Below, piece by piece: positions 14,028-30,822 of a stretch of DNA of 32,000 nt. The DNA comes from Halomicronema hongdechloris C2206. GTDB taxonomy: Bacteria > Cyanobacteriota > Cyanobacteriia > Phormidesmidales > Phormidesmidaceae. A model generated the notes under the pieces. It saw nothing but the letters and a program-made list of their open reading frames with translations. It had not been told where the DNA came from and ran no database searches. Made by a program: the position numbers and the translations under genes. The stretch covers positions 4,140,001 to 4,172,000 of the forward strand of contig NZ_CP021983.2 in NCBI RefSeq assembly GCF_002075285.3. Direction: 5' to 3'. The first letter of the stretch is position 1. Each line of letters opens with the position of its first letter.

Positions 14028-14030
14028 CGC

Positions 14031-15259
14031 AGGGCCATTTCATTCTCAAGGGGACCTAAAGATGCTAGAGTTTCAGGCTAATCCCAATGGTCCTAGCGTC
14101 TATGCGTCTGCCCCCTACCCCTACTACCCTCGACTCGAGGCATGAGCCTGCTGTAGAGCGCATCGAGATCCTCGAAGCCTTCGTTGCCCTGCCAGATGTC
14201 CGTCAGGCCTCTGGCAAACGACATCAGATGGCCTTATGCCTGGCGCTCTTCACCCTGGCGGTGACGGCCGGTAATCGTGGATTTCTGGCCATTGGCGACT
14301 GGCTCAAAAGCTACCGCAGCGAGTTGATTGACCTCTTCAACCCGCCCAAGGGCCGTCTTCCCTCCTACAGCACGATTCGCCGGGTGCTGCTAAAGCTAGA
14401 CTATGGACAGTATTCGGCGGCCTTGGCTCGGTTCTTTGGCATTGAACCGTTAGCCGGTGAAACCTTAGCGGTGGATGGCAAAGTCTTACGCGGGTCGTAT
14501 CAACTGGAGACTGACAATCCTGACTCTCCCCCTCATCCCGCCATTCTATTGGTCAGTGCTTATCTGGTGGAGCGGGGGTTGATTCTGGAGCCCTATCAGG
14601 TAGAGCACAAGACCAACGAAATCAAAGCCCTGCCCGAGTTCATTAAGCAACTGGCGCTGAAGGGGGTGGTGATAGCCTTTGATGCGATTAGCACCCAAAA
14701 AAAACTGTCAGCTCATCCTTGACACCGACAATCATTACTTGGGTGCCCTCAAAGGCAATCAGGGTAACTTGCACAAAAGCGTTCAGGCCAACTTTATCGC
14801 TGAGGACAGCTACACCGAGGTCAGTAAAGGGCATGGGCGACTGGAGAAGCGGGTCGTTAGCCTATGCACCACCCTCGATAACATCAAGCCCTGGCCAGGG
14901 CTGAAGACGCTCATTCGAGTGGAGAGTGAGCGACACTTCAAGAAGGGCGGGCAGCCTCACTTAGAAACTGAGACCCGCTACTATGTCGCCTCGTTTTTAG
15001 AATCAGCGGAATCCTTGGCTCGGCGCATTCGGGGCTATTGGGGCGTTGAAAATAAGGTACATCATATCCGGGATGTGACCCAGGGAGAAGATGCTTCGCG
15101 CATTCGTATGCACCAGTTGCCGCAAATCTTCGCCGTCGCTCGAAACTTCGCGCTCAACCTCTATCGCTCCAACGAGTTCGCCAATATGGCTCAGGCTGAA
15201 CGACTCTGCAAGTTTGGTCTAGATACCCTCAAGGCCATTTTTAGAATGAAATAGCCCTG
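14031..15259 (+). mobile_element. ISAs1-family insertion sequence (1229 bp)
   Basis: The terminal inverted repeats are CAGGGCCATTTCATTCT (14031-14047) and AGAATGAAATAGCCCTG (15243-15259), matching 16/17. A perfect 9-bp direct repeat TATTCACCG flanks the element at 14022-14030 and 15260-15268. It encloses an ISAs1-type transposase. Confidence 0.9.
14087..15254 (+). pseudogene. ISAs1-family (H-repeat-associated type) transposase, split by a frame change in an A8 run
   Basis: N-terminal motif ILEAFVALPDVRQASGKRHQMALCLALFTLAVTAGNRGFLAIGDW. Other family motifs are DAISTQKK, LGALKGNQGNL and YWGVENKVHHIRDVTQGEDASRIR. It forms two overlapping ORFs (14087-14722 and 14679-15254), and the frames meet at AAAAAAAA 14697-14704. 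Confidence 0.85.
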
Positions 15260-16895
15260 TATTCACCGCCAACAGAAATACCTCATTCCATTGCTTGTTT
15301 CTGACCTGCTCAAACACAGTTTGTAATCGCTCAAGCTCATACTCAGAGGCAATCGCCTTGGCAGCAAAGTACTCTTGAAAGCTGAGGTGAGAGAATGAGT
15401 AAATACCGTAGGCACGCTCTACAAACAAACCATGCTGTGCCTCTATAGATTTCAAGACAATCTCTCCCTGCCGTTCCATCTCATAGGGCAGGAGTTTACG
15501 ATTGCGCTTGCCCGGCAGATTGACAATATAGTTGGCGATGTAGTCGGCAAGAGTTTGTTTCCTGAAGAAAATGGCTGATTGCTCAAATGCTTGCAGGGCA
15601 ATGTGGCTTAGCATGCCTACTTTTCGAGCAACAGAGAGTTCTTGGTAGAGCTGACCCCGCTCAATATTACGGCTGGCATCCCATCGCCTTAAGAGTGTAT
15701 TAATTCCCTCTTCATATAACTCTGCCCGACTGTCTGGAAAATCTGCCTCCTCTTCGAAAACCAAGCATAGCAGGGTTAGCAATAATGGATTCGTTGCCAA
15801 CTCTTGAATCCGAGGATTTCGTTGGAGTTTTTCCAAGAAGCGGGCCGCCTTGTCAGGTGTTTGTTTATGGGTAAACCAGTGATTGGCAAACTCCTGGATT
15901 TGCTGCTCGTTGAAATCGGCAACTTCTACTTCAGTAAACTGCTCAAAGACGTATTCTTGAGCCGCAACTCGGCAGGTTAAGATAAAGCGATTCCCATGAA
16001 AATTTTCAGTAAAACTTTGGATTTGCTGATTGACTCGGTGTAAGTCTTCTATCCGTACTTCATCTAGTCCATCCAAGAGCAGTAAAACCCGTCTCTCTTT
16101 GAGTAGGTACTCGATTTCATAACCATGCACCTTCCAGGAGTCATGATCCTGAATCAGGTATTCTAGCAGACTAGGTGATCCATTCTTCTCCGCAAAATCT
16201 TTGAGGACGACAAATATGGGTAAATGGTCAGGAAAGAGTTTACGCTCGCTACACTGAATGGCTATGTGCTTGAGGAATGTAGTTTTGCCAGCACCTGGCT
16301 TACCTATGACCAGTAGTTTTTCTTGCTGTTGCACATAATCAATTCCGGATATCTTCTTCACTATTCTGCGATTCAGGCCGAAGCGATCCAAGCTATTGCC
16401 GTCATTTTTAGCTTGAAAATCCCGAAGTAGGTCATCAATCCGTAACCGTCGATGCCTTGAGACTTGCTCTAAGACATTAATCTCCGTGAAAATGCTGGAC
16501 AGTTCCAAGGGGCTCGTCATATCGAGCACTCGCATGGTACTGCACTCATTACGAATTTTTTCCCTTAATCGCTCATTAAGTTCGTTCACAAAGGCGTCGG
16601 TGTCTATGTCACTCAAACGACTAGGGTGGTTCGGATTTTCTCGGTGATATTGTTCCTGGAGAAAATAGCGGAGTCGCTCTTTCTTACCCCGCCCACCTTC
16701 CCTGAAGCTAAATTTCACATAGACATTCCCCATCCGCGCTTTATAGGCAGACAGGGAAATGTTTAGGTTCTTAATAATGACTTGATCGGTTATTTCACTG
16801 GAGAATGTCTCGACAAAGGCTTCTTCCTCAAGCGACGTCAAACCATATTCCCTCGCCAATTTGACGAGGAAATCCTGCGATATTTCTTCCTGCAT
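15219..16895 (-). CDS. HTH-NACHT NTPase, 5' fragment interrupted by the IS (last 13 codons are IS-derived)
   Basis: Walker A GKPGAGKTTFLKHIA; Walker B LLLLDGLDEV. The N-terminal LuxR/sigma-region-4-like HTH is LTSLEEEAFVETF...NISLSAYKARMGNVYVKF. Native sequence ends at 15260; TGLFHSKNGLEGI-stop is read from the IS end. ATG 16895 is preferred over the track's TTG 16946. Confidence 0.85.
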   Translation of the reverse strand: MQEEISQDFLVKLAREYGLTSLEEEAFVETFSSEITDQVIIKNLNISLSAYKARMGNVYVKFSFREGGRGKKERLRYFLQEQYHRENPNHPSRLSDIDTDAFVNELNERLREKIRNECSTMRVLDMTSPLELSSIFTEINVLEQVSRHRRLRIDDLLRDFQAKNDGNSLDRFGLNRRIVKKISGIDYVQQQEKLLVIGKPGAGKTTFLKHIAIQCSERKLFPDHLPIFVVLKDFAEKNGSPSLLEYLIQDHDSWKVHGYEIEYLLKERRVLLLLDGLDEVRIEDLHRVNQQIQSFTENFHGNRFILTCRVAAQEYVFEQFTEVEVADFNEQQIQEFANHWFTHKQTPDKAARFLEKLQRNPRIQELATNPLLLTLLCLVFEEEADFPDSRAELYEEGINTLLRRWDASRNIERGQLYQELSVARKVGMLSHIALQAFEQSAIFFRKQTLADYIANYIVNLPGKRNRKLLPYEMERQGEIVLKSIEAQHGLFVERAYGIYSFSHLSFQEYFAAKAIASEYELERLQTVFEQVRNKQWNEVFLLAVNTGLFHSKNGLEGI

Positions 16896-17152
16896 GACTC
16901 GCGGTAGATGTGCTCTTTTAACCCTGTACCCCTTATATTCAGCCAAAAATCCGGGAGCGTCAATGGTTATGGAGTCAGCCCCATTGTTGGTCTAAACGGA
17001 TACTCGATAGCTCAAAGTAAGTATTCTGCTTCCAAACCTTTGGGCTGAGAGTACTCGGATCCGTGTTATAGTTCCGGGTAGTTTATGACGACTGCAGCTG
17101 CAGAACCTAGGCTACCTCCGTCTCTCGAAGCTTAGTCATATCAGAGCCGCCA

Positions 17153-18730: not shown

Positions 18731-19216
18731 TTAGCATCCTATTGATTTTGCAAGGATATTGACTTCAGCTTTGGGCAATCGGCGGTTGTGGCGCTTGAGG
18801 ATAGAGAGCCATTCACACAGGAGTTCTGCACTGGCTAATTGGCGCTCATAAACGGACTGGATAATCCAGAGGGTGCCATGAACTGGGACTTGCTGCTTCT
18901 GACAGGATCTTCGGAGAGGCTTTTCGTTGGTTAACAACAGCCGTTGATAGGTCTTGGCATAGTACAGGCAGAGGGCATCTTGAAAACTGAGTGGTCCCCT
19001 TTGATAGGCGCGGGCTAGGAGCGCCCACTCTTGGGTGACGGTAACCGTTTGAATGCCAGCAGTCACGATCGCCTCCGGCAAATCCGGCTGACGAGGGTGG
19101 CAGCATTCATCAAAGACGACATCCAGAACCTCGACTGTGCCCAACTGTGTCAAGACGGATAAGCCATCAACATAGCCCAGGTCTATGAGGACATTGGCAT
19201 CTGACAGCAGAATCAA
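18731..19216 (-). CDS. PIN-domain protein (putative toxin partner of XRE-ImmA/IrrE)
   Basis: 161-aa ORF. The N-terminal LLSDANVLIDL carries the acidic PIN residue, and further acidic positions occur in DVVFDE, SFQDAL and LLLTNEKPL. Its TTG start overlaps the upstream stop (TTGA at 19213-19216). Confidence 0.65.
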   Translation of the reverse strand: MILLSDANVLIDLGYVDGLSVLTQLGTVEVLDVVFDECCHPRQPDLPEAIVTAGIQTVTVTQEWALLARAYQRGPLSFQDALCLYYAKTYQRLLLTNEKPLRRSCQKQQVPVHGTLWIIQSVYERQLASAELLCEWLSILKRHNRRLPKAEVNILAKSIGC

Positions 19217-20301
19217 ACTTCCAGTTCCTCCAACCAGTCGTTCAGTGTGTCGCGCAACTCGACCAAAGGCTTGCCTAAAATCTCTGCGGCTCTAGAAATC
19301 GTAATTTCTTCTTGGAGCAAGGCCAGAAAGACCATGCGTTCCAGGCGAGTTAAACGTTCGGAGTCTGGTAAATCAACAGGTTCATTGGTTAGGCCATGCT
19401 TCTTATTGAGCTGGCCAATTTGCTGCTCTTTTTGTTTTTGGGAGATGATGCCGACGTCAGCAGCTCGGTACAAAACGGTTCTCATGCTGACGCCATATCG
19501 TCGCTTCATATCGGCGAGTAGGGGTTCTGGCAGCCAGCGCCGGCGATAACCATGCAGTTCACGGCGGATGACATCTTCGGGCAAGAGAACGGCCCCGGCG
19601 AAGTGGTTGGCTACCTTTTCCCGTGGGTCAGAGCGCCCGCCTGCTTTTTCGTTGGGGACTCGATACTCCTGACGATGAAAAATTAGGTGGGCAAGCTCGT
19701 GGAGGGCAGTGAAGAATTTCCGCTCCGTGGGATGAACCGCATTGATAAAGATGACGGCACCTGAGGTTTCGGTGTAGGCCGAAAACCCTGAGATCTCGTT
19801 GGGCAGCGGGTGCAAGATGACCTTCAGCCCTTTCGACTCCAATAGGGCCAGGGCATCTCCCAAGGGGCAGGTTTCGCCCATGCCCAGCCAGTCGCGAATC
19901 TCCCGTGCGACTTCTTCAACGACATGAGCATCGTACCCGGCCAGCGGGCGCATCTCTGGCAGGGTGGGGATTTCGTGGATCAGTTGCTCAATAAAGGTAT
20001 AGTCTTCGGCTTTTCGGGAGAGGGCCGCCCGCAGGTGAGGATTGAGCGCCGAGGGCTGATCAGCCCGAAACATCAGCCCTGCCGTTTCGGGCATGGCCAC
20101 AGCCTCGGTGTCTGGCAGTAGCAGATCGACTGCGATGTCCAAGAACTGAGCAATTTGGGTGAGTTGAGCGACAGACGGTTCCCGATCGCCCTTTTCCCAC
20201 GCGGCGATCGTTTGCCGGGTAACCCCTAGATATTGTCCCAGCTCTGCCTGAGAGATTCCGGCTTGCTCTCGATAAATTCGGATTGAGTTAACATTTCTCA
20301 T
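19213..20301 (-). CDS. XRE-family HTH fused to an ImmA/IrrE (COG2856, M78) zinc metallopeptidase
   Basis: The N-terminal HTH is ISQAELGQYLGVTRQTIAAWEKGDREPSVAQLTQIAQFL. The central region carries HELAHLIFH (HExxH). Confidence 0.85.
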   Translation of the reverse strand: MRNVNSIRIYREQAGISQAELGQYLGVTRQTIAAWEKGDREPSVAQLTQIAQFLDIAVDLLLPDTEAVAMPETAGLMFRADQPSALNPHLRAALSRKAEDYTFIEQLIHEIPTLPEMRPLAGYDAHVVEEVAREIRDWLGMGETCPLGDALALLESKGLKVILHPLPNEISGFSAYTETSGAVIFINAVHPTERKFFTALHELAHLIFHRQEYRVPNEKAGGRSDPREKVANHFAGAVLLPEDVIRRELHGYRRRWLPEPLLADMKRRYGVSMRTVLYRAADVGIISQKQKEQQIGQLNKKHGLTNEPVDLPDSERLTRLERMVFLALLQEEITISRAAEILGKPLVELRDTLNDWLEELEV

Positions 20302-21260: not shown

Positions 21261-21644
21261 CTACTGTGCAGCGGCCGCCGGTGGATCGGCTTCGATGCGG
21301 GCGTGACTGCTGCGACGAATGCGGTCTTGGCGTCGCACGCCTCCGGCCATCTGATACTCGATGCTGTCTTTGCCGTATTGAAAGGCCACTCCGGTTAGCA
21401 TCTGCGAAGACATTTGCCTCAGGTCTTGTTCCAGGGAGATGATTTCGCTACGCAGCGTATCGACTTCTGTCAGGGCGGTGTTGTAGGCACTGAGCTTATC
21501 CCGCAGACTATCGATCCGCTGGTTGAAGGTGTCTAGGGAACGATCATCACCAAAGTCGATGGCAGGATCAATGGCCGCGAGGCCAGCGGCGCGAACTTCC
21601 GCCTGTTCGAGAGTGCGAGAGGTTGTACGTTTCCGGTATACCAT
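21261..21644 (-). CDS. Hypothetical protein (predicted helical / coiled coil)
   Basis: ORF with ATG 21644 preceded by AGGTGA; the track start GTG 21653 is less likely. It is followed by a strong terminator. No domain recognised. Confidence 0.6.
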   Translation of the reverse strand: MVYRKRTTSRTLEQAEVRAAGLAAIDPAIDFGDDRSLDTFNQRIDSLRDKLSAYNTALTEVDTLRSEIISLEQDLRQMSSQMLTGVAFQYGKDSIEYQMAGGVRRQDRIRRSSHARIEADPPAAAAQ

Positions 21645-22038
21645 TTTGTTCACCTATTCATAAACAGCTATGGGGAGCCTGGGATTGGGAAGCCGTCGCC
21701 AGGAAGCAGCCGCCCGGTATGACCGGATTAGGGAGACCCGACACTGACGACTCCCATCGCTGCTGTGCCATCGAGGCTGCAGACATCGCAGCGATGAGGG
21801 CTGGCGCCGAGTTCTGATCGCAGGGGCGATTGCGTTGGCTGAATCTTGGTGCTGCCGTGAACCGGGTTGGGGCTTGTGGTTTCTGGCAGGCTTCTCTCTC
21901 GAGCTCTGTACCTACAGTAGCTTCACGCCTGGGGGAGTTCCCTCAGAAGAACTGCTGGATATGATGATTTTTTGGATACATCATGGCTGAGTAGGATTAC
22001 GGTAGGGCGACCTGACGACGCCTTGAAACCTGAGATCC

Positions 22039-22227
22039 AAGCTTGTGTTGTTAGATCACAAGCTTGTGTTATGGGAGCACAACCTTGAGTTATAGGAGCA
22101 GAAGCTTGTGTTGTTAGATCACGAGCTTGTGTTATGGGAGCAGAAGCTTGTGTTGTTAGATCACGAGCTTGTGTTATGGGATCTCAAGCTTGAATTATGG
22201 GATCCCAAGCTTGTGGGATTCGATCTC
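22039..22227. repeat. Tandem array of nine 21-bp units (alternating subtypes, effectively a 42-bp higher-order repeat)
   Basis: The units start at 22039, 22060, 22081, 22102, 22123, 22144, 22165, 22186 and 22207. The two subtypes are AAGCTTGTGTTGTTAGATCAC and (A/G)AGCTTGTGTTATGGGAGCA(C/G). A degenerate tenth unit may lie at about 22018-22038. Stops occur in all six frames. Confidence 0.9.
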
Positions 22228-22435: not shown

Positions 22436-22849
22436 ATGGCAACTCCCCAGGATTCTCCTGCAGATCGCTCTGTGCAGGTTGGCGGTGACATCACCGGCAG
22501 CGCCGTGGTTACCGGCGACCACAACACGGTGCAGGTTCAACCGGCATCATTACCGTCGCCGGAAACGGTCGATATCCAGGCCGAACTGAAGGCCTTGCAA
22601 ACGCTGCTGGCCGGCTTTGATGACCCGGTGGCCACCGGGGTCGCCCAGAAGCTAGCGCAGGAGGCCGCCAAGCCAGAGCCGGATAAGAGCGCCATCGCCA
22701 CCACTTTAGAAACGGGCCTGACCTACGCCCAGAGCCTGGCTGGATTCGCCGAGGCCATCGACAAGCTGCGGCCCCATGTGGAAGCGGCGGCTGGCTGGCT
22801 AGGCAAGCAGGGCTATAAGCTGCTGCCGCTGGTGGGATTAACGCTGTAG
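22436..22849 (+). CDS. Small protein sharing its N-terminal leader motif with the downstream STAND NTPase
   Basis: 137-aa ORF with an ATG start, ending 39 bp upstream of the STAND gene. Its N-terminus DRSVQVGGDITGSAVVTGDHNTVQV parallels DRSIRIEDSAVGSAIVSGDGNTIYV in the next gene. The rest is Ala-rich and probably helical. Confidence 0.65.
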   Translation: MATPQDSPADRSVQVGGDITGSAVVTGDHNTVQVQPASLPSPETVDIQAELKALQTLLAGFDDPVATGVAQKLAQEAAKPEPDKSAIATTLETGLTYAQSLAGFAEAIDKLRPHVEAAAGWLGKQGYKLLPLVGLTL

Positions 22850-22888
22850 GGCAGATACCATCTCAGCATTAGGGGAATTCCGCAAGCG

Positions 22889-23950
22889 ATGACCGAGCCC
22901 CAACCTGACCGCAGCATTCGCATCGAGGACAGCGCCGTTGGCAGTGCCATCGTGTCTGGGGATGGCAACACCATCTATGTGATCCAGCAGAGTCTAGAGC
23001 AACGGCAGCCGCAACCAGCGGCAGATAATCCCGCCATTGGCCCCAACCCCTACAAGGGATTAGCGGCGTTTAAGGAGCGTGATAGCGATCGCTACTTTGG
23101 CCGGGAAGCACAAGTCGAACGACTCTGGCAGTGGTTTCAGACTCTGGTTGAGCAATCTACGGTTCCGAGAGTCCTGCCAATCTTGGGGCCATCGGGGTGT
23201 GGCAAATCTTCCCTGGCGAGAGCGGGCCTGATTCCTGAACTGGCTCGACGACCGCTACCAGGGAAAGAACAGATGCGGGTGGCGGTGCTGGTGCCGGGCA
23301 CTCACCCGGTTGCAGCCTTGGCAGGGGTGCTAGCTAAAGCTGTGACTCAAGACTCCATGCCGGTGACTAAAACACGGGAGTTTGCGGCTGAGCTGAGGTT
23401 GCAGGCTGAAACGGGAGACTACGATGGTCTGCGCCGCATTGCCAACCTGATGCCCCAGATTCAAGATTCGCCGCTGGTGATACTGGTGGATCAGTTTGAG
23501 GAGGTTTATTCGCTCTGTAAAGACGTTAGTGAGCGGCAGGCCTTTATTGAGACGTTAATCCATGCGGCGGGTGACCCGACGGGCAATGTATCGGTGGTGA
23601 TCACGCTGCGGAGCGACTTCTTGGGAGAAACCCAGCAACATCCAGTGCTGAATCAGATTCTGGGCAGCGCGGGATATAATCCCGTCGTGCAAGCCATGAC
23701 TCCAGAGGAGTTGCGCCGGGCCATTGCTGAACCCGCGAAGCAGGCTGGACATCCCCTGGATGAAGCCACGATTGATTTGCTGGTGAAGGATACGGAAGGA
23801 CGGGAGGGGGCGTTACCGCTGTTGCAATTTGCCCTGACCCGGATGTGGGACGGGTTAGGGCAGGGAAATCCCCGGCTGACCTGTACCGTGAGATGGGCGG
23901 TGTGGGCGGTGCACTGGCGGGGAAGGCTCAGGAGATCTATGAGCGTCTGA
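22889..23950 (+). CDS. nSTAND-type P-loop NTPase, N-terminal part of a frameshifted STAND-TM-WD40 gene
   Basis: After the leader motif it reads NPYKGLAAFKERDSDRYFGREAQVERL, then Walker A GPSGCGKSSLARAG and Walker B LVILVDQFEEV. The conserved LPLLQFALTRMW then runs into the out-of-frame tail GNPRLTCTVRWAVWAV. Confidence 0.8.
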   Translation: MTEPQPDRSIRIEDSAVGSAIVSGDGNTIYVIQQSLEQRQPQPAADNPAIGPNPYKGLAAFKERDSDRYFGREAQVERLWQWFQTLVEQSTVPRVLPILGPSGCGKSSLARAGLIPELARRPLPGKEQMRVAVLVPGTHPVAALAGVLAKAVTQDSMPVTKTREFAAELRLQAETGDYDGLRRIANLMPQIQDSPLVILVDQFEEVYSLCKDVSERQAFIETLIHAAGDPTGNVSVVITLRSDFLGETQQHPVLNQILGSAGYNPVVQAMTPEELRRAIAEPAKQAGHPLDEATIDLLVKDTEGREGALPLLQFALTRMWDGLGQGNPRLTCTVRWAVWAVHWRGRLRRSMSV

Positions 23951-26900
23951 ACCAGGACGAACAAGCCATTGCCAGACGGGTCTTTGTGGGGTTGGTGCAG
24001 CTTGGGGAAGGCACCCGCGATACTCGGCGACGGGCGGCGTTAGAGAGTTTGGTGGCAAGTCGGGATACGCCAGAAGCGGTGAAGCAGGTGATCCATCGGT
24101 TTGCCTCACCGGGGGCAAGATTGGTGACCCTCGCCCACGAGGCTAAGCAAGAAACGGCAGAAGTGACCCATGAGGCGCTGTTTGACCATTGGCAGCAGTT
24201 GTATGACTGGCTAGACAGCAGTCGAGACGATATTCGCTTTCAGCGGCGACTGGAGGCAGCGGCAACGTATTGGGAGAAGCAAGGACGACCTGAGGGACTG
24301 CTGTGGCGACGACCCGACTTGGATCTCTTACACACCTATTTCGCGTCTTTTCAGCAAGACATGACTACCTTACAGCTTCAGTTTTATCAAGCATCTACAC
24401 GTGCAAGAAAACTACGAAAAATTTTAGTTTGGGGAATAGTCGGGGCATTAGGAGTAATGACTGGAGGCATAGCTTGGTTTGGTCGTCAGGCACATCGAAC
24501 TGCATTTCTATCTAAGACTCAACAGTTAGCGCTGCAAGCTGAGTCTCTAGTGAGTCAACAAGAAGTACAACAACAAAAAGCAGGAGCTTTACTAGCAGTC
24601 AAGTCCTGGCAGCAGTTTCAACTGATGAAAAAATCATCCTTAGAAGTTGACCGAGCGCTCCGAAGTAGTTTAAATGTTCTCCCTGAGAGTGAGTTCATCT
24701 ATCTTGACCATATTAATGAGATTGTGTCTTGGGGTTCTATTGGCATAACATCTTTCACCATTGGACATAATTACTTTATTGACTCTGCGATCTTTAGTCC
24801 CGATGGTGAGAAAATTGTTGTTTTTTATCAAACTCCTGAAAGCTCTTTCTGGTCTGGTGAGGCGAGAATTTGGGATGTTGCGACTCAGAAGGAGATTTTT
24901 CGAATAGATCATGAGGTAACTATAGACTCTGTCACTTTTAGTTCTGACGGAGAAAAGATTTTTTACAGTAGCACAGATGAAGTGTTTTTTGGAGTAGATG
25001 TATCGACCCAAAAAGAATTGTTTCGCTTTGAATTAGATAGCCCTGTTGATTCGATTGTTTTTAACTCTGACGGAAAATCGTTTATTTTAGCTTTTAAATA
25101 CAATCCTTACTTGCTAGAAATTCGGGATATTAAGAGTGGCAAGAAAATTCGTGAAATTACTGACTTAGATCTGTTTCAAGATTTTTCGTTTAGAGTAGAT
25201 GATGCAAAAATTATCTCTATCAATTTGGAGGGTATAGTAAAGACATGGGATATCCATACTGGAAAAGAGATAAATCAAATACAAATAGCAAATCTTCAAA
25301 AGTTTGACTATGCGGTTAAATTAAGTCCTGATGGGAAGCGGTTCATTTCTAGTAGCGAAGGCGATGATGGCATATTGCTATGGGATACTTTCAAAGGATC
25401 TAGAATTTCTTGGATCAGTCACGCAGACTATTACTCTGCTTTATTCAGTCATAATGGCAAATGGTTCGCTTTTCTTGACAAAGACGGAGTTTTGAAGGTA
25501 CACAGATCCTCTGATGGAAAAGAAGTTTTTTATTCTCAGGATGGTCTTGAAGTTAAATCTTTCAAATTTAGTCCCAACGAGAGTCAGATAGCCTTTGTGA
25601 CGGCGGATGATATGGTAAGAGTATGGAGTATCAATGTCAGAAGAGAAGTTGCTCGCTTTAATCATGAGGGATATATTCGAGCAATTAATTTTAGTCTTGA
25701 TGGAACGAAAATTGCTTCTGCTAGTGTCACAGATACTGGCTTAAGTAATTACTGGATTCCTCTTGATATGCCAACTCTAAAAGTTTGGAATGTTGACACT
25801 GATACTAACGAAGAATTTTCTCTCAAACACAATGATAGTATTAACTTTGCTACTTTTAACCCAGATGGAACGAATGTTATTTCTGCAAGTGATGACGGAA
25901 CAGCAAGATTATGGAACACATATACTGGACAAGAATTGAAAAGTTTTGATCATAAAAATCCAGTTTTATTCGCATCGTTTAATCCCACCAAGAATCAAAT
26001 AGTTTCTGTTGATGCTGACAAAACGTTACGAGTGTGGGATATCAAAACTGGCCTAGCATTAGAGGAAATAAAGCATGAACACAATATTGAATTTGCTGCC
26101 TTTAGTGCTGATGGAAGTCGATTATTCTCTTTAAGCTACAGTGGAGATCGTGAAACTCCGATTTCCAATAGGGATAGTACCATTAGAGTATGGGATACAA
26201 ATGACTATAATGAAATAATTCATACTGATTCTGGATTTAACAGAAATATCTTCTTCAGCTCTGATAGTAAATGGCTTGCTCATTATGATGGTGAAGACTG
26301 GAGGTTTTGGAATACTGATACTGGGCAAGAAGTTTCTGAGCCTAATTACCGAAAGGGATTTCTTATTAATTTCAGGGATTTGAGGACTCAGTATTTCAAC
26401 CCTGAAGCGTGGGATAGAGGAAAACCATTTAGTCCGGATGGAAGCCGGATTTTTCGAAGTGACAGCTTGTTTAATAGAGGGTTGGTAGAGATTTTAGAGC
26501 TTCCTTCTGAGCGCAATAAGATAAGCCAGTTTACTCATGGCCATCAATTTAATGATGCAGATTTTAGCCCCAATGGTGAACTTATAGTCTCTTCTAGTGA
26601 TGATGATACGATAAGAGTCTGGAAAACTTCCGATGGTTCAGAAGTCGCTCGATTTAGTCATAAGAACACTACCTCTGTAGCTTTTAGTCCTGATGGGACT
26701 CGAATTGTCTCCACCAGTGCTAACCACACAGCAAAGATATGGCTGATTGATACAGCAGAGTTGGCTGCGAGGGTTTGTCAGAGAGTCAAGCGAAATTTGA
26801 CCTCTGAAGAATGGCTCAACTATATTGGCTCAGAATTAACAGAATACGAATTAACTTGCCCAGACTATCCAGTGCATCCTAGCCTTCTTGATAGAGCAAG

Positions 26901-27075
26901 AATTGATGCTGCACGTGGTGATATTCGTTCATCTATAGTTCTCTTAAATCATCTTATTAGGATCAGTAAGACGGCTGGTCACACCGTTGATTTAGATCCT
27001 TCAACGGAGAGCATTGAACAAGATCCTAAAGCTTACTCGAATAAAATTGCAGCAGATAGCGAGGCAGAACAGTAA
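23845..27075 (+). CDS. C-terminal part of the same STAND gene: helical region, one TM helix, about 14 degenerate WD40 blades and a Cys-containing tail
   Basis: The frame is -1 relative to 22889-23950. KSPADLYREMGGVGGALAGKAQEIY...GEGTRDTRRR continues the family-typical sequence. The TM helix is ILVWGIVGALGVMTGGIAWFG. WD40 signatures include FSPDGEKIV, DDGTARLWN, DKTLRVWD and DDDTIRVWK. The tail is RNLTSEEWLNYIG...LTCPDYP. Confidence 0.8.
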   Translation: MGRVRAGKSPADLYREMGGVGGALAGKAQEIYERLNQDEQAIARRVFVGLVQLGEGTRDTRRRAALESLVASRDTPEAVKQVIHRFASPGARLVTLAHEAKQETAEVTHEALFDHWQQLYDWLDSSRDDIRFQRRLEAAATYWEKQGRPEGLLWRRPDLDLLHTYFASFQQDMTTLQLQFYQASTRARKLRKILVWGIVGALGVMTGGIAWFGRQAHRTAFLSKTQQLALQAESLVSQQEVQQQKAGALLAVKSWQQFQLMKKSSLEVDRALRSSLNVLPESEFIYLDHINEIVSWGSIGITSFTIGHNYFIDSAIFSPDGEKIVVFYQTPESSFWSGEARIWDVATQKEIFRIDHEVTIDSVTFSSDGEKIFYSSTDEVFFGVDVSTQKELFRFELDSPVDSIVFNSDGKSFILAFKYNPYLLEIRDIKSGKKIREITDLDLFQDFSFRVDDAKIISINLEGIVKTWDIHTGKEINQIQIANLQKFDYAVKLSPDGKRFISSSEGDDGILLWDTFKGSRISWISHADYYSALFSHNGKWFAFLDKDGVLKVHRSSDGKEVFYSQDGLEVKSFKFSPNESQIAFVTADDMVRVWSINVRREVARFNHEGYIRAINFSLDGTKIASASVTDTGLSNYWIPLDMPTLKVWNVDTDTNEEFSLKHNDSINFATFNPDGTNVISASDDGTARLWNTYTGQELKSFDHKNPVLFASFNPTKNQIVSVDADKTLRVWDIKTGLALEEIKHEHNIEFAAFSADGSRLFSLSYSGDRETPISNRDSTIRVWDTNDYNEIIHTDSGFNRNIFFSSDSKWLAHYDGEDWRFWNTDTGQEVSEPNYRKGFLINFRDLRTQYFNPEAWDRGKPFSPDGSRIFRSDSLFNRGLVEILELPSERNKISQFTHGHQFNDADFSPNGELIVSSSDDDTIRVWKTSDGSEVARFSHKNTTSVAFSPDGTRIVSTSANHTAKIWLIDTAELAARVCQRVKRNLTSEEWLNYIGSELTEYELTCPDYPVHPSLLDRARIDAARGDIRSSIVLLNHLIRISKTAGHTVDLDPSTESIEQDPKAYSNKIAADSEAEQ

Positions 27076-27384: not shown

Positions 27385-27627
27385 ATGAATCTCTTAGAAA
27401 GCCAAGTCTTAGAAAAAATGAAGGTTCTATCTCAGGAAAAACAGCAAGAGGTTTTAGACTTCGTGGAATTTCTCATTTCAAGAGCTACACCCCAGGCAAG
27501 TTCTATAGAGCTTCCCCAACCTTTAGAAAGCTCATTCGTTGAAGCCGCCCGACAATATGTTGGTTGCACCGAAGGACCAGGAGATCTTTCGACAAATCCC
27601 AATTATATGGAAGGCTATGGGACTTAA
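27385..27627 (+). CDS. Type II antitoxin (DUF2281-like) paired with the downstream PIN toxin
   Basis: 80-aa ORF. The N-terminus LEKMKVLSQEKQQEVLDFVEFLISR and the C-terminal DLSTNPNYMEGYG are typical of antitoxins of cyanobacterial PIN toxins. Its stop overlaps the next start (TAATG). Confidence 0.65.
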   Translation: MNLLESQVLEKMKVLSQEKQQEVLDFVEFLISRATPQASSIELPQPLESSFVEAARQYVGCTEGPGDLSTNPNYMEGYGT

Positions 27628-28049
27628 TGGCGCAGTCTCATCTAATAATCGACACGGGTCCGCTAGTCGCCATTATTAATCGACGTGATCAATGGCATGA
27701 ATGGGCTGTCAACGAACTGAGCCTGATCCAACCGCCTTTATTCACCTGTGAGGCTGTAATTTCCGAAGCTCATTTTTTGTTAGGACGAGTCCATAATGGA
27801 AGAGAAGCTTTGATGGGTCTGTTGGCTGATCGGCTGGTGCAAATTCCCTGGCAGCTTTCTGAAGAGTTGGATTCAGTTAGGAAGTTGTTGCAGCGTTATC
27901 GGTCAGTACCAATGTCTTTAGCAGATGCCTGCTTGGTGAGAATGGCTGAGCAATATTCGGGAAGCAAAGTCTTTACGATTGATGGTGATTTCAGGATTTA
28001 CCGAATGGATCGTGATCAAATCATTCCTGCGATCATACCTGAGGATTGA
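27627..28049 (+). CDS. PIN-domain toxin (VapC-like)
   Basis: MAQSHLIIDTGPLVAII carries the first acidic residue. Later motifs are CEAVISEAHFLL, SLADACLV and FTIDGDFRIY. The ATG overlaps the antitoxin stop. Confidence 0.75.
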   Translation: MAQSHLIIDTGPLVAIINRRDQWHEWAVNELSLIQPPLFTCEAVISEAHFLLGRVHNGREALMGLLADRLVQIPWQLSEELDSVRKLLQRYRSVPMSLADACLVRMAEQYSGSKVFTIDGDFRIYRMDRDQIIPAIIPED

Positions 28050-28070
28050 ATGGCCTAACCAGAACCGGGC

Positions 28071-28415
28071 TTATGGCAGCCACCAGCGCGCAGCCTTTGC
28101 CGCTTGAAGAGTAGTAGAAAGCATGAGTTGCCTACTTGGTGAGTAGCAGATGGGATAATGCAAGCAATCTCTCAACAGACTTTTGCAAGTCTTCGTAGGC
28201 ATGAACCTCGTCCCGGTGCCTGAGGTAGTAGCCATCACAAGGTAAATATCGGAAAGCTGTAAGGATGGGTATTGCTCCCCGATTTCTTCTGGAGTGCAGC
28301 CCTCCAGAAAAGCAATCACAACGGTGTCTAGCGTGACACGAGTTTCAGCAACTCGGACAACACCTTGAGCATCAGCTTTGATCGGTGCAGGTTCAAGCGC
28401 AATAGCTAACGTCAT
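28071..28415 (-). pseudogene. DUF433-family protein with a frameshift near 28233
   Basis: The first 60 codons (GVVRVAETRVTLDTVVIAFLEGCTPEEIGEQYPSLQLSDIYLV) are DUF433. The family-typical continuation GYYLRHRDEVHAYEDLQKSVERLLALSHLLLTK-stop (stop at 28133-28135) lies in another frame. The 114-aa track ORF has a non-homologous tail. Confidence 0.65.
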
Positions 28416-28661
28416 AGGCCTGCCTAGTCTTCTATTCTAGAGAATAGCAAAGGTCACCAGAGAAGCGCGGCGCACGTGCAAACGGTATGCATGGAATCAG
28501 TAATCGCCGATGCGCTTGCTGACTCCGCAGCTTCTGACAGCCTTTGCACAAGACTTCATGTTCCTGACTGGAACATGAGTTTACTTCTGGCAGGGGAGAT
28601 CGGGCGAGAACACGGTGACTTCTACAATAAAGTTACCTAGGTCGTCCACAAGGCCAGTGCA

Positions 28662-29216
28662 ATGATTGCCGTCCCCCACTACCTCAGCCCCGAAGAATAT
28701 CTAGATCTCGAAACCCAAAGCCCCATTCGCCACGAGTATCGCCGGGGCTTAGCCTATGCTATGGCTGGGGGTACCGACAATCACGATCGTCTGGCCCTCA
28801 ACCTGCTTACCCTCATTAACCTACATTTGGGCGATTCTGAGTGTCGATTCCATTCCGGCAATGTGAAAGTTAACTACCAAGACGAGTTTTATGACTATCC
28901 CGACGCCTTCATTACCTGCGATCCGCGCGATAGAGCCGATCGCTATATCAAACGCTACCCAAAACTAATTGCAGAAGTCCTGTCACCCAGTACCCAAGCA
29001 TTCGATCTCAGTGAAAAGTTCGATGATTATCAAAAGCTGGCATCTTTAGAAGAATATATGCTGATTTTCCAAGACAGTCAGCGGGTAGAATGCCGTCGCC
29101 GCACCCCTGGTAATACCTGGGAAAGCGTCGTTTATAGGATGGGCGATCGCGTTCTCCTCAAGAGTATTGACTTGGAATTTGCCATTGCTGACCTGTATCG
29201 CGGCTTAGATGGTTAG
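28662..29216 (+). CDS. Uma2-family (DUF820) PD-(D/E)xK endonuclease
   Basis: 184-aa ORF. Typical Uma2 features are SPEEYLDLE...RHEYRRG, the DAFITCD acidic residue, PKLIAEVLSPST and EYMLIFQD. Confidence 0.8.
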   Translation: MIAVPHYLSPEEYLDLETQSPIRHEYRRGLAYAMAGGTDNHDRLALNLLTLINLHLGDSECRFHSGNVKVNYQDEFYDYPDAFITCDPRDRADRYIKRYPKLIAEVLSPSTQAFDLSEKFDDYQKLASLEEYMLIFQDSQRVECRRRTPGNTWESVVYRMGDRVLLKSIDLEFAIADLYRGLDG

Positions 29217-29232
29217 TACCGACTATTAGGAT

Positions 29233-29389
29233 ACATCCCAGTTTTGCAAAAGTCATTCTGTCGGCGGAGCCGCGCCCTTGATGCAGGGTTAGTCTGAGAG
29301 TGCATCCCGACTTTGCAATTCCACGCGATTGGCCCTCATCCTCCAACCCCTTCTCCCAAAGTTGGGTGAGGGCTGCAAAACTGGGATGT
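29233..29389. repeat. MITE-like element: perfect 16-bp terminal inverted repeats with an internal third copy
   Basis: ACATCCCAGTTTTGCA (29233-29248) is the exact reverse complement of TGCAAAACTGGGATGT (29374-29389). A related direct copy GCATCCCGACTTTGCAA lies at 29302-29318. TAGTCTGAG recurs at 29290-29298 and 29394-29402. Confidence 0.6.
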
Positions 29390-29487
29390 GCCCTAGTCTG
29401 AGGGGATTAGCGATCGATCACTTCTGACGCTGGTGAGCAATTTTCCCTGGCTGAGCATTAGTACAGATTAGCTAAATTAGATTCCAG

Positions 29488-29799
29488 CTAGAGATATTTC
29501 GGAGTTCTCCATAATCCACGAATTTGCCTCAACTCGGCCAGCCAGTTGAGATCACGTCCATAGGTTTTGTCTAAAGCTCCAGTTTTGACGAAGTGCAGAC
29601 TGATTGCTCTCAGAACTCCAGCATGACTGCCAAAAGTCAAATCTCTTGAAAGCAGCAAGGCAGAAGCAGCATGAAACGCCGCATAGTAAGCTCTGGATGC
29701 AGCATCATTTGGAAAACCAGACGATAACAACGTTCTTGCCGCTTCTAGGGAAGACTCCGCTCGGTTAAAGTTGGCCCGAATCTCCTCAGGACGGCTCAA
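29488..29799 (-). CDS. HEPN-domain protein (toxin of a HEPN/MNT pair), C-terminus possibly frameshifted or truncated
   Basis: SRAYYAAFHAASALLL...SHAGVLRAISLHFVKTG...LAELRQIR is HEPN-like. The expected D-Y-G continuation (DYGELRNIS) lies in the adjacent frame just before the stop. The TTG start overlaps the MNT stop (TTGA). Confidence 0.65.
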   Translation of the reverse strand: MSRPEEIRANFNRAESSLEAARTLLSSGFPNDAASRAYYAAFHAASALLLSRDLTFGSHAGVLRAISLHFVKTGALDKTYGRDLNWLAELRQIRGLWRTPKYL

Positions 29800-30137
29800 A
29801 GCGAGATCCCCTCTCGATGAATATTGCGATACAACTGACTGACCCCTTGCTCAAATTCGTCTTGGGCCGCAGGTTTAGCCGACAGCCAATAGCTGGCTTC
29901 CAGTTGGAGAGGATAAAGCAAATCAACAATGGTACGTAACTCCTGGAAGTAGTTGACCAGAGGAGCCAGCAAAACCAGTAGGTCAACGTCGCTCTCTGGC
30001 GTCAGCGCGTCCTTCGCGGCAGAGCCATAGAGAATGAGAGATTTCAGCTTATCGCCATAGTGCTCAAGCAAAACTTGTTTGCAGGCGGCCAGGGTCTCCT
30101 GTAAAGGGAACTCCAAATCCGGTTGAGCCGTTTTCAC
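29796..30137 (-). CDS. Minimal nucleotidyltransferase (MNT antitoxin of the HEPN/MNT pair)
   Basis: LILYGSAAKDALTPESDVDLLVLL carries the GS...DxD motif. GTG 30137 is proposed as the start. The track ORF extends to 30218 and would overlap the upstream Uma2 gene. Confidence 0.75.
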   Translation of the reverse strand: MKTAQPDLEFPLQETLAACKQVLLEHYGDKLKSLILYGSAAKDALTPESDVDLLVLLAPLVNYFQELRTIVDLLYPLQLEASYWLSAKPAAQDEFEQGVSQLYRNIHREGISL

Positions 30138-30156
30138 GTCGATTCCCTCGATCGCC

Positions 30157-30822
30157 TCATAGCTGCTGCGCCAACCACTGGGCCACACTGCCATTCGACT
30201 CCGTTGCCAGCCGTCCAAACGCCTGCTCCACCAGCGACGCCTCCAACCCCGCCAAAGCCACCGACGTCAGCGTCTGCTGATATAGCCCCTCCGGCGACAG
30301 TCGAAACACCATCAGCCGCGCCGCCTGCACATCAACCACCCAGTATTCCGGAATTTCCAGCCAGCCATAGATCTGCTTCTTCTCATCCAGATCGGTGGCC
30401 AGGGTGGTATCACCCACCTCACACACCAGATCCGGCACCCGCCACTGCCGCAGATTCACCCGCCGCGGTTCCCCCGGCTGCCAACGAGGCACATCCGCTC
30501 CGATGTATAACACCTCATCCGGTGAGGCCGCCCGCTGCTGAGGCTTTTCGAGAATGCATCCGCCCAAGCAGTCAAACGACTGCCCTGGCTGTCGACGGCT
30601 AAACCAGGCGAAAAAGATCATCGCTAACAATTCTCTGAAGCGGGCATGGTCGACCCCTTCCCAGCCCATATCAATAAACAACCGTCCTTGATTGAAGAAG
30701 ATGCGAAAGTGCTCAGCCTTGGCAGTATTGACGCTGTTCAGATAGTCTTGCCAGGTAGCAATGTACCACCGGGGTAGGTCGCTGGGGGACTGACGGGCCG
30801 GAATTTGAGAGACCGATACCAC
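30157..30822 (-). CDS. Uma2-family (DUF820) endonuclease
   Basis: 221-aa ORF with a GTG start. The motifs VPDLVCEVGDTTLATDLDEKKQIYGWLEIPEYWVVD match the Uma2 catalytic core. Confidence 0.7.
   Translation of the reverse strand: MVSVSQIPARQSPSDLPRWYIATWQDYLNSVNTAKAEHFRIFFNQGRLFIDMGWEGVDHARFRELLAMIFFAWFSRRQPGQSFDCLGGCILEKPQQRAASPDEVLYIGADVPRWQPGEPRRVNLRQWRVPDLVCEVGDTTLATDLDEKKQIYGWLEIPEYWVVDVQAARLMVFRLSPEGLYQQTLTSVALAGLEASLVEQAFGRLATESNGSVAQWLAQQL

What the first reader, a model, noticed from the sequence alone, without database searches (positions are those of the whole stretch)
22436..27075. Candidate two-gene STAND module: a 137-aa protein and a giant NTPase-TM-WD40 protein share the same N-terminal leader
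Two co-oriented genes lie 39 bp apart.

Both open with a homologous segment of about 30 aa:
- small protein: DRSVQVGGDITGSAVVTGDHNTVQVQPASL
- STAND protein: DRSIRIEDSAVGSAIVSGDGNTIYVIQQSL
- shared pattern: D-R-S ... G-S-A-x-V-x-G-D-x-N-T-x-x-V ... S-L

The remainder of the small protein is Ala-rich and has no catalytic motif I can recognise. Its C-terminus, GWLGKQGYKLLPLVGLTL, is hydrophobic.

In described NTP-dependent conflict systems, STAND/NLR-like NTPases recruit separately encoded partners through shared N-terminal adaptor domains. By analogy, I infer that the leader is a homotypic interaction module tethering the small protein to the NTPase, as either effector or regulator.

I do not recognise this pairing as a named system. 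The locus also has its own repeat array upstream and a divergently transcribed, strongly terminated small gene (21261-21644).
Basis: partly seen in the sequence, partly recalled or inferred. Interest (0 to 1): 0.75.

Follow-up and report, generated by a model that had tools for sequence, protein, structure and literature searches.

The report
Amyloid-motif effector and STAND receptor pair
A small protein and the giant NTPase encoded next to it share a short motif of a known bacterial "amyloid signalling" type, so this is probably a cell-death or immunity switch of a known kind, built from a new effector domain and a new class of receptor.

Summary
The 137-aa ORF (22436-22849) and the frameshifted nSTAND1-TM-WD40 gene (22889-27075) lie 39 bp apart. 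They share a ~30-aa N-terminal segment: BLASTP 17/39 identical, E 4e-6; no shuffle in 20,000 reaches the score.

The small ORF is a real, conserved gene with 415 cluster representatives and no Pfam, NCBIfam or PADLOC model. In at least 14 of 50 related loci, a standalone copy sits directly 5' of a large gene carrying the same leader, nearly always an nSTAND1.

The adaptor idea is therefore supported, but the leader is not new. It is a BASS6-type bacterial amyloid signalling sequence (Dyrka et al. 2020). That motif normally sits at the C-terminus of Bell-domain effectors and the N-terminus of adjacent NLRs.

Three things differ here:
- The motif is N-terminal to a ~100-aa helical domain that is not detectably related to Bell.
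- That motif-plus-domain module also occurs fused behind TIR, CHAT and pentapeptide-repeat domains.
- The receptor is an nSTAND1 NTPase with a conserved predicted transmembrane helix.

Amyloid templating and the effector's activity are inferred, not shown. Partner-specific co-variation is weak. This copy's receptor carries a 1-nt frameshift.

Verdict: a new variant of a known kind.

The parts
22436..22849 (+). Small effector-side gene (137 aa; XM38_039490 of Halomicronema hongdechloris C2206): BASS6-type motif followed by a helical module
   Evidence: ORF. 100% match to an NCBI protein and 151 homologues with E <= 0.01 (120 listed, 58-81% identical). 415 cluster representatives. No Pfam, NCBIfam or PADLOC family.
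22463..22552 (+). Effector-side leader, residues 10-39 (DRSVQVGGDITGSAVVTGDHNTVQVQPASL): BASS6-type amyloid signalling motif
   Evidence: An HMM built from 88 published BASS6 motifs hits residues 10-30; the top 14 of 4113 ORFs are all module leaders. hhalign against the Bell family aligns only this segment (91.3%, E 9.4e-7). AF2 pLDDT is below 50 for residues 1-33. Composition is rich in S/V/G/T/N/I/Q and almost lacks K/P/L.
22553..22846 (+). Helical domain, residues 40-137, with near-invariant C-terminal GWLGKxGxKLLPLVGLxL; candidate executioner or regulatory domain
   Evidence: AF2 gives helices 47-59, 64-77, 84-98, 104-125 and 127-133 with pLDDT about 85. No Foldseek PDB match with E < 1 and no significant PDB sequence match (best E 0.072). 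Conservation. Lies at the C-terminal end of the protein in nearly all of the 150 listed representatives.
22889..27075 (+). Receptor gene: leader-nSTAND1-TM-WD40, about 1395 aa if repaired, split by one frameshift
   Evidence: ORFs, Pfam, orthologues of 725-1430 aa.
22907..22996 (+). Receptor-side leader, residues 7-36 (DRSIRIEDSAVGSAIVSGDGNTIYVIQQSL)
   Evidence: Matches the small-protein family HMM at residues 4-36, E 2.2e-5. hhalign 97.7%. hhalign against the Bell C-terminal BASS: 73%, E 3e-5.
23048..24294 (+). nSTAND1 NTPase domain (PF20703), interrupted by the frameshift
   Evidence: first ORF residues 54-323 match profile positions 1-240; second ORF residues 12-150 match positions 248-378.
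23863..23868 (+). Frameshift site: one base missing in the GGGAAA run
   Evidence: Orthologues read ...LQFALTRIWEGLxxGKxPAxxYRxMGGVGGALAGKAQ. The window reads ...WDGLGQG in one frame and KSPADLYREMGGVGGALAGKAQ in the next. Neither reading frame has any other stop.
24418..24474 (+). Predicted transmembrane helix (second ORF residues 192-210), flanked by RARKLRK on the N-terminal side
   Evidence: Kyte-Doolittle 19-aa window scores 1.67. A segment at the same place, just after nSTAND1, is found in 13 of 15 orthologues, and in the window copy too.
24830..26770 (+). WD40 beta-propeller region (presumed sensor), of unusually low G+C
   Evidence: Pfam WD40 and beta-propeller hits over second-ORF residues 385-972. 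GC 0.35-0.41 against 0.56 upstream.

Best explanation
This is a two-gene amyloid-signalling type immune or cell-death module, built from non-canonical parts.

The receptor is a STAND NTPase of the nSTAND1 clade. Its NTPase is predicted to be cytoplasmic. A single membrane-spanning helix follows, then a C-terminal WD40 sensor.

Proposed mechanism, by analogy with NWD2/HET-S and Bab/Agp (inferred): a ligand bound by the WD40 part drives NTP-dependent oligomerisation. This brings the N-terminal BASS6-type motifs of several receptor molecules together, so that they adopt a cross-beta fold. That fold templates the same motif at the N-terminus of the small protein. The motif is disordered in the resting state. 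Its conversion changes or polymerises the attached four- to five-helix domain, which then acts as the effector. The most likely action is on the membrane, through its conserved C-terminal WLG...KLLPLVGL segment. In relatives the module carries fused TIR, CHAT or other domains, and polymerisation would concentrate them.

Shown here: the motif is shared, it is of BASS6 type, the gene pair is conserved, and the partner domain is new.

Inferred: amyloid formation, the direction of signalling, the membrane topology, and what the helical domain does.
For: 1. The shared motif is real.

2. The motif is of BASS6 type.
- Published BASS6 sequences such as Roseiflexus A7NJM5 (LGERSVAIGGDVTGSVIVTGDRNTVQ) nearly equal the window's ADRSVQVGGDITGSAVVTGDHNTVQ (supplement of PMC8086366).
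- An HMM built only from 88 published BASS6 motifs ranks module leaders as the top 14 of 4113 ORFs.
- Cyanobacterial Bell proteins fetched independently end in NRSVAIGGSVSGSVIVTGDRN.
- hhalign of the module family against the Bell family aligns only the motif (91.3%, E 9.4e-7).

3. The genomic logic equals that of published BASS pairs: effector gene 5' of the receptor, same strand, short gaps. The gap is 39 bp here and -1 to 103 bp in twelve standalone-module loci; two more loci carry an intervening gene or ORF. Compare 10.1101/2020.01.06.895854. No terminator-like site lies between the two genes.

4. The same leader sits on receptors of two STAND clades flanking one CHAT-module gene: nSTAND1, and a divergent NACHT gene in L034 and L039.

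5. The module is fused behind immune effector domains. Among 49 fusion representatives: TIR_2 in 11, CHAT in 5, and SEFIR, caspase, trypsin and EAD1 in 1 each.

6. AF2 predicts a disordered leader on a confident helical bundle, as expected for a motif that is soluble until templated.

7. Composition matches the published BASS bias: rich in G/N/Q/V/I, poor in K/P/L.

8. Amyloid signalling between a small helical effector and an adjacent sensor has been shown experimentally to give phage defence (Bab/Agp; 10.1101/2024.11.07.622273).
Against: - No experiment or structure prediction here shows that this motif forms amyloid or that the two proteins interact.
- Partner-specific co-variation is weak: 12.3 against 11.7 identities of 30, permutation p 0.03, or 0.08 on a non-redundant subset. 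Effector-type and receptor-type leaders form two separately conserved classes.
- Individual E-values of the BASS6 HMM are weak (0.013 for the window protein). Receptor-side leaders were not among its top hits.
- The topology is reversed relative to every published BASS effector.
- The helical domain has no recognisable relative, so its function is a guess.
- Its C-terminal segment is not hydrophobic enough for a classical transmembrane helix.
- About 11 of the roughly 26 standalone modules whose downstream sequence could be read, and all pentapeptide-repeat fusions, have no STAND gene next to them.
- The receptor in this window is frameshifted.
Confidence: 0.6

Rival explanations
1. The leader is a homotypic adaptor that does not form amyloid. 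It would work by beta-strand augmentation or a small oligomer, in the manner of the effector-associated domains (EADs) of NTP-dependent conflict systems. It tethers the small protein to the NTPase as a regulator, cap or scaffold rather than as a templated executioner.
For: - Same-adaptor coupling is the general logic of these systems (PMC7159879).
- One module fusion carries EAD1.
- Effector-type and receptor-type leaders are two distinct conserved classes with little partner-specific co-variation. That fits a fixed heterotypic interface as well as it fits templating.
- The AF2 model shows a two-residue beta-bridge between the end of the leader (residues 35-36) and the C-terminal tail (135-136), which hints at an intramolecular role.
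Against: - The motif is sequence-similar to a family whose members were selected as amyloid signalling sequences. Related BASS1, BASS3 and BASS11 motifs form fibrils and prions.
- No Pfam EAD model matches.
- A 30-aa segment rich in G/N/Q/V/I and free of K/P/L, predicted disordered, is not a folded adaptor domain.
Confidence: 0.2
2. The locus in this strain is a decaying remnant. The receptor is a pseudogene, and the small gene is either orphaned or served in trans by another leader-bearing receptor elsewhere in the genome.
For: - A single-base frameshift lies inside the NTPase domain.
- A second STAND gene (NACHT, 15219-16946) in the same window is split by an IS element.
- Many modules in other genomes stand alone without an adjacent STAND gene.
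Against: - The shift lies in a GGGAAA run, a typical site of sequencing error.
- Apart from it, about 1395 codons are free of stops in two long frames.
- The small ORF is intact and 58-81% identical to homologues.
Confidence: 0.3
3. The shared segment is a recognition or cleavage site for a protease such as CHAT, or a degradation tag. It would mark both proteins for the same processing step, as in protease-activated effectors such as EACC1.
For: - In the CHAT-module, caspase-module and trypsin-module fusions the segment lies between the protease and the helical domain.
- Small 5' genes activated by cleavage are known (EACC1; PMC12642450).
Against: - In the window, and in most loci, no protease is encoded.
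- The segment begins 6-10 residues from the N-terminus of both proteins, so cleavage would remove almost nothing.
- No EACC1 model matches.
- The most common fusion partner is TIR, which is not a protease.
Confidence: 0.05
4. The similarity is a chance match between two low-complexity N-termini.
For: The segment is compositionally biased.
Against: - E 4e-6 with composition-adjusted BLASTP.
- 0 of 20,000 composition-preserving shuffles reach the score.
- hhalign E 1.5e-12.
- The same pairing recurs in at least 14 independent loci.
Confidence: 0.01

Closest known systems
Bell-domain / NLR gene pairs with BASS6 (bacterial amyloid signalling sequence family 6), Dyrka et al. 2020 (bioRxiv 10.1101/2020.01.06.895854; datasets in PMC8086366)
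   Same: - The same motif family ([GD][ED/N]RS[VI]x[IV]GGx[VI]xGSx[IV][VI]TGDxN).
- The motif sits at the extreme N-terminus of a STAND NTPase that has C-terminal repeats.
- The small effector gene lies immediately 5', on the same strand, with a short gap.
- The small protein is about 140 aa with an alpha-helical bundle.
- Found in filamentous cyanobacteria.
- A classical cyanobacterial example was fetched here: L051, Bell-BASS6 then BASS6-NB-ARC-TPR.
   Different: - The motif is N-terminal, not C-terminal, to the helical domain.
- The helical domain is not detectably homologous to Bell; hhalign aligns only the motif.
- The conserved hydrophobic segment is at the C-terminus instead of the N-terminus.
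- The receptor is nSTAND1, which lay outside the NACHT/NB-ARC screen of that study, and it carries a transmembrane helix.
HET-S / NWD2 (Podospora anserina) and Bab / Agp (E. coli, BASS11; bioRxiv 10.1101/2024.11.07.622273)
   Same: The proposed mechanism is the same. The sensor's N-terminal motif templates the effector's motif. The effector is a small helical membrane-targeting domain, and the output is cell death or abortive infection.
   Different: - Different motif families (HRAM, BASS11).
- The effector motif is C-terminal in those systems.
- Agp is not a STAND NTPase.
- Those systems are experimentally proven; this one is not.
EAD-coupled NTP-dependent conflict systems and the nSTAND1 clade (Kaur et al. 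2020, PMC7159879; Kaur et al. 2021, PMC8195603)
   Same: - nSTAND1 NTPase core (Pfam PF20703).
- The principle that the same short N-terminal element on the NTPase and on separately encoded effector proteins couples them.
- Effector repertoire of TIR, caspase/CHAT and trypsin.
- Association with multicellular bacteria.
   Different: The coupling element is not one of the folded EAD or Death-like domains (no Pfam match). It is a ~30-aa beta-prone motif of the BASS type.
EACC1-caspase two-gene system (PMC7159879; PMC12642450)
   Same: A small 5' gene with no enzymatic domain, next to a large multidomain immune protein. nSTAND1 is sometimes part of EACC1 systems. The small protein is a candidate pore-former.
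   Different: No match to the EACC1 model. No protease in the window's receptor. The coupling element is a shared motif rather than a cleavage site.

Membership tests
BASS effector/NLR amyloid-signalling gene pair (Dyrka et al. 2020) | A ~25-aa motif shared between the N-terminus of a STAND/NLR protein and the product of an adjacent gene | tested here: met
   for the window; for at least 14 further loci.
BASS effector/NLR amyloid-signalling gene pair (Dyrka et al. 2020) | The motif belongs to one of the defined BASS families (here BASS6) | tested here: met
   An HMM of 88 published BASS6 motifs ranks module leaders as the top 14 of 4113 ORFs. hhalign to Bell C-terminal BASS6: 91.3%, E 9.4e-7. 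The receptor-side leader is weaker: 73%, E 3e-5.
BASS effector/NLR amyloid-signalling gene pair (Dyrka et al. 2020) | The motif lies at the C-terminus of the effector protein | tested here: not met
   The motif covers residues 10-39 of 137, N-terminal to the helical domain. In fusion proteins it is internal and is followed by the helical domain.
BASS effector/NLR amyloid-signalling gene pair (Dyrka et al. 2020) | The effector carries a Bell domain (or another named effector domain) | tested here: not met
   hhalign of family A1 against Bell family A4 aligns only the motif. No Pfam, NCBIfam, PADLOC, PDB or Foldseek relative was found.
BASS effector/NLR amyloid-signalling gene pair (Dyrka et al. 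2020) | The receptor is a NACHT or NB-ARC NTPase with TPR or WD repeats | tested here: not met
   The NTPase is nSTAND1 (237 and 128 bits). NACHT scores 18.3 bits, below its 26.7 cut-off. The broader feature, a STAND NTPase plus WD40, is present. Divergent NACHT receptors with the same leader exist in L034 and L039.
BASS effector/NLR amyloid-signalling gene pair (Dyrka et al. 2020) | Collinear genes with a very short intergenic distance | tested here: met
   39 bp in the window; -1 to 103 bp in related loci.
BASS effector/NLR amyloid-signalling gene pair (Dyrka et al. 2020) | Composition enriched in Q/N/G/V/I and depleted in K/P/L | tested here: met
   On the effector side, S, V, G, T, N, I and Q make up 80% of residues and K+P+L 1.6%. 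On the receptor side, K+P+L make up 1.8%.
BASS effector/NLR amyloid-signalling gene pair (Dyrka et al. 2020) | The motif forms amyloid fibrils or prions, and the receptor motif seeds the effector motif | not testable with these tools
   Needs peptides, GFP fusions or solid-state NMR. An AF2 monomer only shows the motif as low-confidence.
nSTAND1 clade of STAND NTPases (Pfam PF20703) | Match to the family profile above the gathering score over its full length | tested here: met
   profile positions 1-240 (237.1 bits) and 248-378 (127.6 bits) across the frameshift. The cut-off is 27.1 bits.
EAD-coupled conflict systems (Kaur et al. 2020) | The coupling element is one of the EAD or Death-like domains | tested here: not met
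   No EAD Pfam model matches either window protein.
EACC1-caspase system | The 5' protein matches EACC1 and the 3' protein carries a caspase-type peptidase | tested here: not met
   No EACC1 hit and no peptidase domain in the receptor.

The most novel reading that the evidence does not exclude
The ~100-aa helical domain is a previously unrecognised amyloid-triggered executioner. It would be a topological mirror image of HeLo/Bell, with the motif at the N-terminus and the membrane-active segment at the C-terminus, and it is used both alone and as a constant tail behind TIR, CHAT and pentapeptide-repeat proteins. Its nSTAND1 receptors would be membrane-spanning NLR-like sensors that read an extracytoplasmic signal through their WD40 domain and pass it on inside the cell by amyloid templating.
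Probability: 0.3. Interest if true: 0.75.

Novelty: new variant of a known kind. Interest (0 to 1): 0.6.

Why it matters
Published amyloid signalling in bacteria is described as Bell-type effectors with a C-terminal motif, paired with NACHT or NB-ARC receptors. A 2026 review still describes it this way (PMC13506858).

This locus, and the family of 415 clusters behind it, suggests three extensions:
- The same BASS6 motif is used in the opposite orientation.
- It is used with an unrelated and unannotated helical domain.
- It is used by a different STAND clade that appears to span the membrane.

If confirmed, this widens the known repertoire of prion-like immune switches in filamentous cyanobacteria. 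It gives a name and a testable role to a family now annotated only as hypothetical proteins. It also offers a natural test of whether templating works regardless of which end of the effector carries the motif.

Tried and rejected
- **Leader-only database search.** The 42-aa receptor-leader profile returned only 12 short fragments at contig ends. I therefore could not survey all proteins that carry the leader. One of those fragments, P0272, does show that the Crocosphaera locus L006 continues into a leader-bearing gene.
- **Fold and sequence searches for the helical domain.** Foldseek against the PDB gave nothing below E 2.7. A PDB sequence profile search gave nothing significant (best E 0.072). 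Pfam at E <= 5 gave nothing for the window protein.
- **Partner co-variation.** The signal is only marginal. I do not use it as support.
- **Homology of the helical domain to Bell.** Rejected.
- **EACC1 or EAD membership.** Rejected.
- **The upstream 21-bp repeat array as part of the system.** Rejected, because no related locus has it.
- **Taxonomy of remote family members.** Could not be obtained; they are metagenomic with no names.
- **Not attempted.** The second structure job was not used. No multimer prediction is offered, and chimeric inputs are not accepted.

Full report
**1. What is in the window**

The window comes from Halomicronema hongdechloris C2206, a cyanobacterium of the Nodosilineaceae. 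The small ORF is identical to XM38_039490.

The ORF 22436-22849 (+) encodes 137 aa. A large gene starts at 22889, 39 bp downstream on the same strand. Pfam identifies this gene as an nSTAND1 STAND NTPase. Profile positions 1-240 fall in ORF 22889-23950 and positions 248-378 in ORF 23845-27075, followed by WD40 propellers.

Comparison with intact orthologues places the break at a single missing base in GGGAAA (23863-23868). There is no other damage over about 1395 codons. It could be a sequencing error or a very recent mutation.

A hydrophobic segment lies just after the NTPase domain (nt 24418-24474). Basic residues flank it on the N-terminal side. The same segment is present in 13 of 15 orthologues. 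The receptor is therefore predicted to have its NTPase inside the cell and its WD40 part outside.

**2. The shared leader is real**

- BLASTP of the two window proteins gives 17/39 identities, E 4e-6.
- The local alignment score is 72, against 22.4 +/- 4.5 for 20,000 shuffles.
- A profile of 15 receptor-side leaders matches the small-protein family profile at 97.7% probability, E 1.5e-12.

**3. The small ORF is a conserved gene family**

- 151 homologues were found at E <= 0.01. The 120 listed are almost all about 139 aa and 58-81% identical, from Leptolyngbya, Nodosilinea, Phormidium, Gloeothece and Crocosphaera.
- An exhaustive profile search found 415 cluster representatives at E <= 0.001, of which 245 are at E <= 1e-10.
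- The family has three conserved parts: an N-terminal NRSVxIGGxVTGSAVVTGDxNTVSVQFQQASLP segment, a helical middle, and a near-invariant C-terminal GWLGKHGxKLLPLVGLxL.
- No Pfam, NCBIfam or PADLOC model matches it.
- AlphaFold2 with the family alignment gives pLDDT below 50 for residues 1-33. Residues 40-137 form a confident four- to five-helix bundle.
- That bundle has no Foldseek match in the PDB and no PDB sequence match.

**4. Synteny**

A scan of one genome per species returned 50 loci. They fall into these groups:

- A standalone module lies directly 5' of an nSTAND1 gene that begins with the leader in the window, L002, L003, L010, L011, L016, L017, L019, L035, L038 and L046. In L004 an ORF, and in L005 a gene, is inserted between the two.
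- L029 has a leader-bearing 1404-aa protein of another kind.
- L006 ends in a leader-bearing fragment.
- In L025, L034 and L039 the upstream gene is a CHAT protease fused to the whole module. L034 and L039 also have a divergent NACHT gene with the same leader, so one effector gene is flanked by two receptor clades.
- In the two Scytonema loci, L043 and L045, an nSTAND1 gene precedes a CHAT-module gene (nSTAND1-TPR in L043).
- About ten loci have the module at the C-terminal end of ~700-aa pentapeptide-repeat proteins with no STAND nearby.
- About eleven standalone modules are orphans.

Among 49 fusion representatives, the N-terminal partners were TIR_2 (11), pentapeptide repeats (9) and CHAT (5). 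SEFIR, EAD1, trypsin, caspase and CHASE2 occurred once each. The module ends at the protein's C-terminus in nearly all cases.

**5. What the leader is**

It is a member of a described class, the bacterial amyloid signalling sequences (BASS) of Dyrka et al. 2020, and specifically BASS6.

- The published BASS6 dataset contains sequences such as LGERSVAIGGDVTGSVIVTGDRNTVQ (Roseiflexus) and AGVNVIASGNRSVAIGGNVSGSTIITGDQNQ (Chloroflexus). Validated pairs include ASGERSIAAGGNIGVAITGDG on the effector with ASGERAIAAGESIGVAVSGDNAR on the NLR.
- I built an HMM from 88 of those published motifs only and scanned all 4113 six-frame ORFs of the window and the 50 loci. The top 14 hits were all module leaders at the expected position. 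The window protein hit at residues 10-30, E 0.013.
- I fetched cyanobacterial Bell-domain proteins independently. Several end in NRSVAIGGSVSGSVIVTGDRN or GERSVAIGGDVKGSTIVTGDQN.
- Profile-profile comparison of the module family with this Bell family aligns only the motif, at 91.3% and E 9.4e-7. The helical domains do not align.
- Two classical comparators were read: L051 (Bell-BASS6 followed after 2 bp by BASS6-NB-ARC-TPR) and L052.
- The leader's composition matches the published BASS bias: rich in S/V/G/T/N/I/Q, with under 2% K+P+L.

**6. How it probably works**

The argument is by analogy with NWD2/HET-S and with Bab/Agp, which was shown to give abortive-infection phage defence.

- Ligand binding by the WD40 part would drive NTP-dependent oligomerisation.
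- The clustered receptor leaders would form a cross-beta nucleus.
- That nucleus would template the leader of the small protein, and the attached helical domain would then be activated or polymerised.
- The conserved segment farthest from the motif (C-terminal here, N-terminal in HeLo/Bell) is the natural candidate for the active element. This is inference.
- In the fusions, the same event would concentrate TIR or CHAT domains.

None of these steps was or could be tested here.

**7. Weak points**

- Partner-specific co-variation is marginal: 12.3 against 11.7 identities of 30, p 0.03, or 0.08 on a non-redundant set.
- Receptor-side leaders resemble published BASS6 less than effector-side leaders do.
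- Many modules are not next to a STAND gene.
- The helical domain's function is unknown.
- This copy's receptor is frameshifted.

**8. Comparison and novelty**

The logic and the motif are known.

Three features are not described in the papers I could read, including a 2026 review that still places BASS at the C-terminus of HeLo-like domains:
- the reversed placement of the motif;
- the new helical partner domain and its fusions;
- nSTAND1 receptors with a transmembrane helix.

Dyrka et al. noted BASS motifs in the 'C-terminal region' of some TIR2 and CHAT proteins. Some of those may be members of this module family, but I could not check this.

I rate the finding a new variant of a known kind, with interest 0.6.

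Noticed in passing
window 24400-27075: G+C falls from about 0.56-0.58 in the leader and NTPase part to 0.35-0.41 in the part after the transmembrane helix (the WD40 sensor). None of the 15 orthologous receptors shows a drop of this size below its own locus average; two (L003, L038) decline more mildly. This looks like a sensor-domain swap from a low-GC donor, with the junction at the transmembrane helix.
   Followed up: partly
window 23863-23868: The single-base frameshift in the receptor lies in a GGGAAA homopolymer context. It may be an assembly error rather than a true pseudogene.
   Followed up: partly
window 22034-22215: A tandem array of 8.7 copies of a 21-bp unit (GATCACAAGCTTGTGTTATGG) lies about 220 bp upstream of the small gene. 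Each unit is centred on an ACAAGCTTGT palindrome. Allowing 2 mismatches there are 13 matches in the window, against 0.7 expected. The array is absent from all 50 related loci. Its function is unknown.
   Followed up: partly
window 13353-16946 (- strand): A second STAND gene (NACHT, 15219-16946) appears to be split by an IS element (DDE transposase ORFs 14087-15254). Its NACHT C-terminal helical domain (NCH2) continues at 13353-14027.
   Followed up: partly
window 18731-20301 and 27385-30822: The neighbourhood is rich in toxin-antitoxin-like and mobile-type genes: an HTH plus Peptidase_M78 (ImmA/IrrE-like) gene overlapping a 161-aa ORF, a PIN-domain gene, a DUF433 gene, and two Uma2-family putative endonucleases.
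   Followed up: partly
L034 1064-2854 (-) and L039 4386-6653 (-): NACHT NTPases transcribed divergently from the CHAT-module gene carry the same leader after a ~30-aa N-terminal extension (SDRHITVDGNVEGSAVIAGDSNTVVVH). One effector gene thus seems to be served by two receptor clades.
   Followed up: partly
L013, L014, L015, L018, L020, L021, L022, L027, L032, L037; also L040 and L041: The module is fused to the C-terminus of ~560-740-aa pentapeptide-repeat proteins in housekeeping-like neighbourhoods. In L040 and L041 it lies convergent to a pentapeptide-repeat gene. Why a repeat protein of this kind should carry an amyloid-motif module is unexplained.
   Followed up: no
P0175 / P0354 (metagenomic): In rare proteins the module is N-terminal and is followed by a transmembrane segment and a CHASE2 domain. 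One cluster member is annotated as CHASE2 plus TIR. This is the only exception seen to the rule that the module ends the protein.
   Followed up: no
It has no Pfam family (only a sub-threshold HBM hit, E 0.0058). I did not check whether it is conserved next to the system.
   Followed up: no
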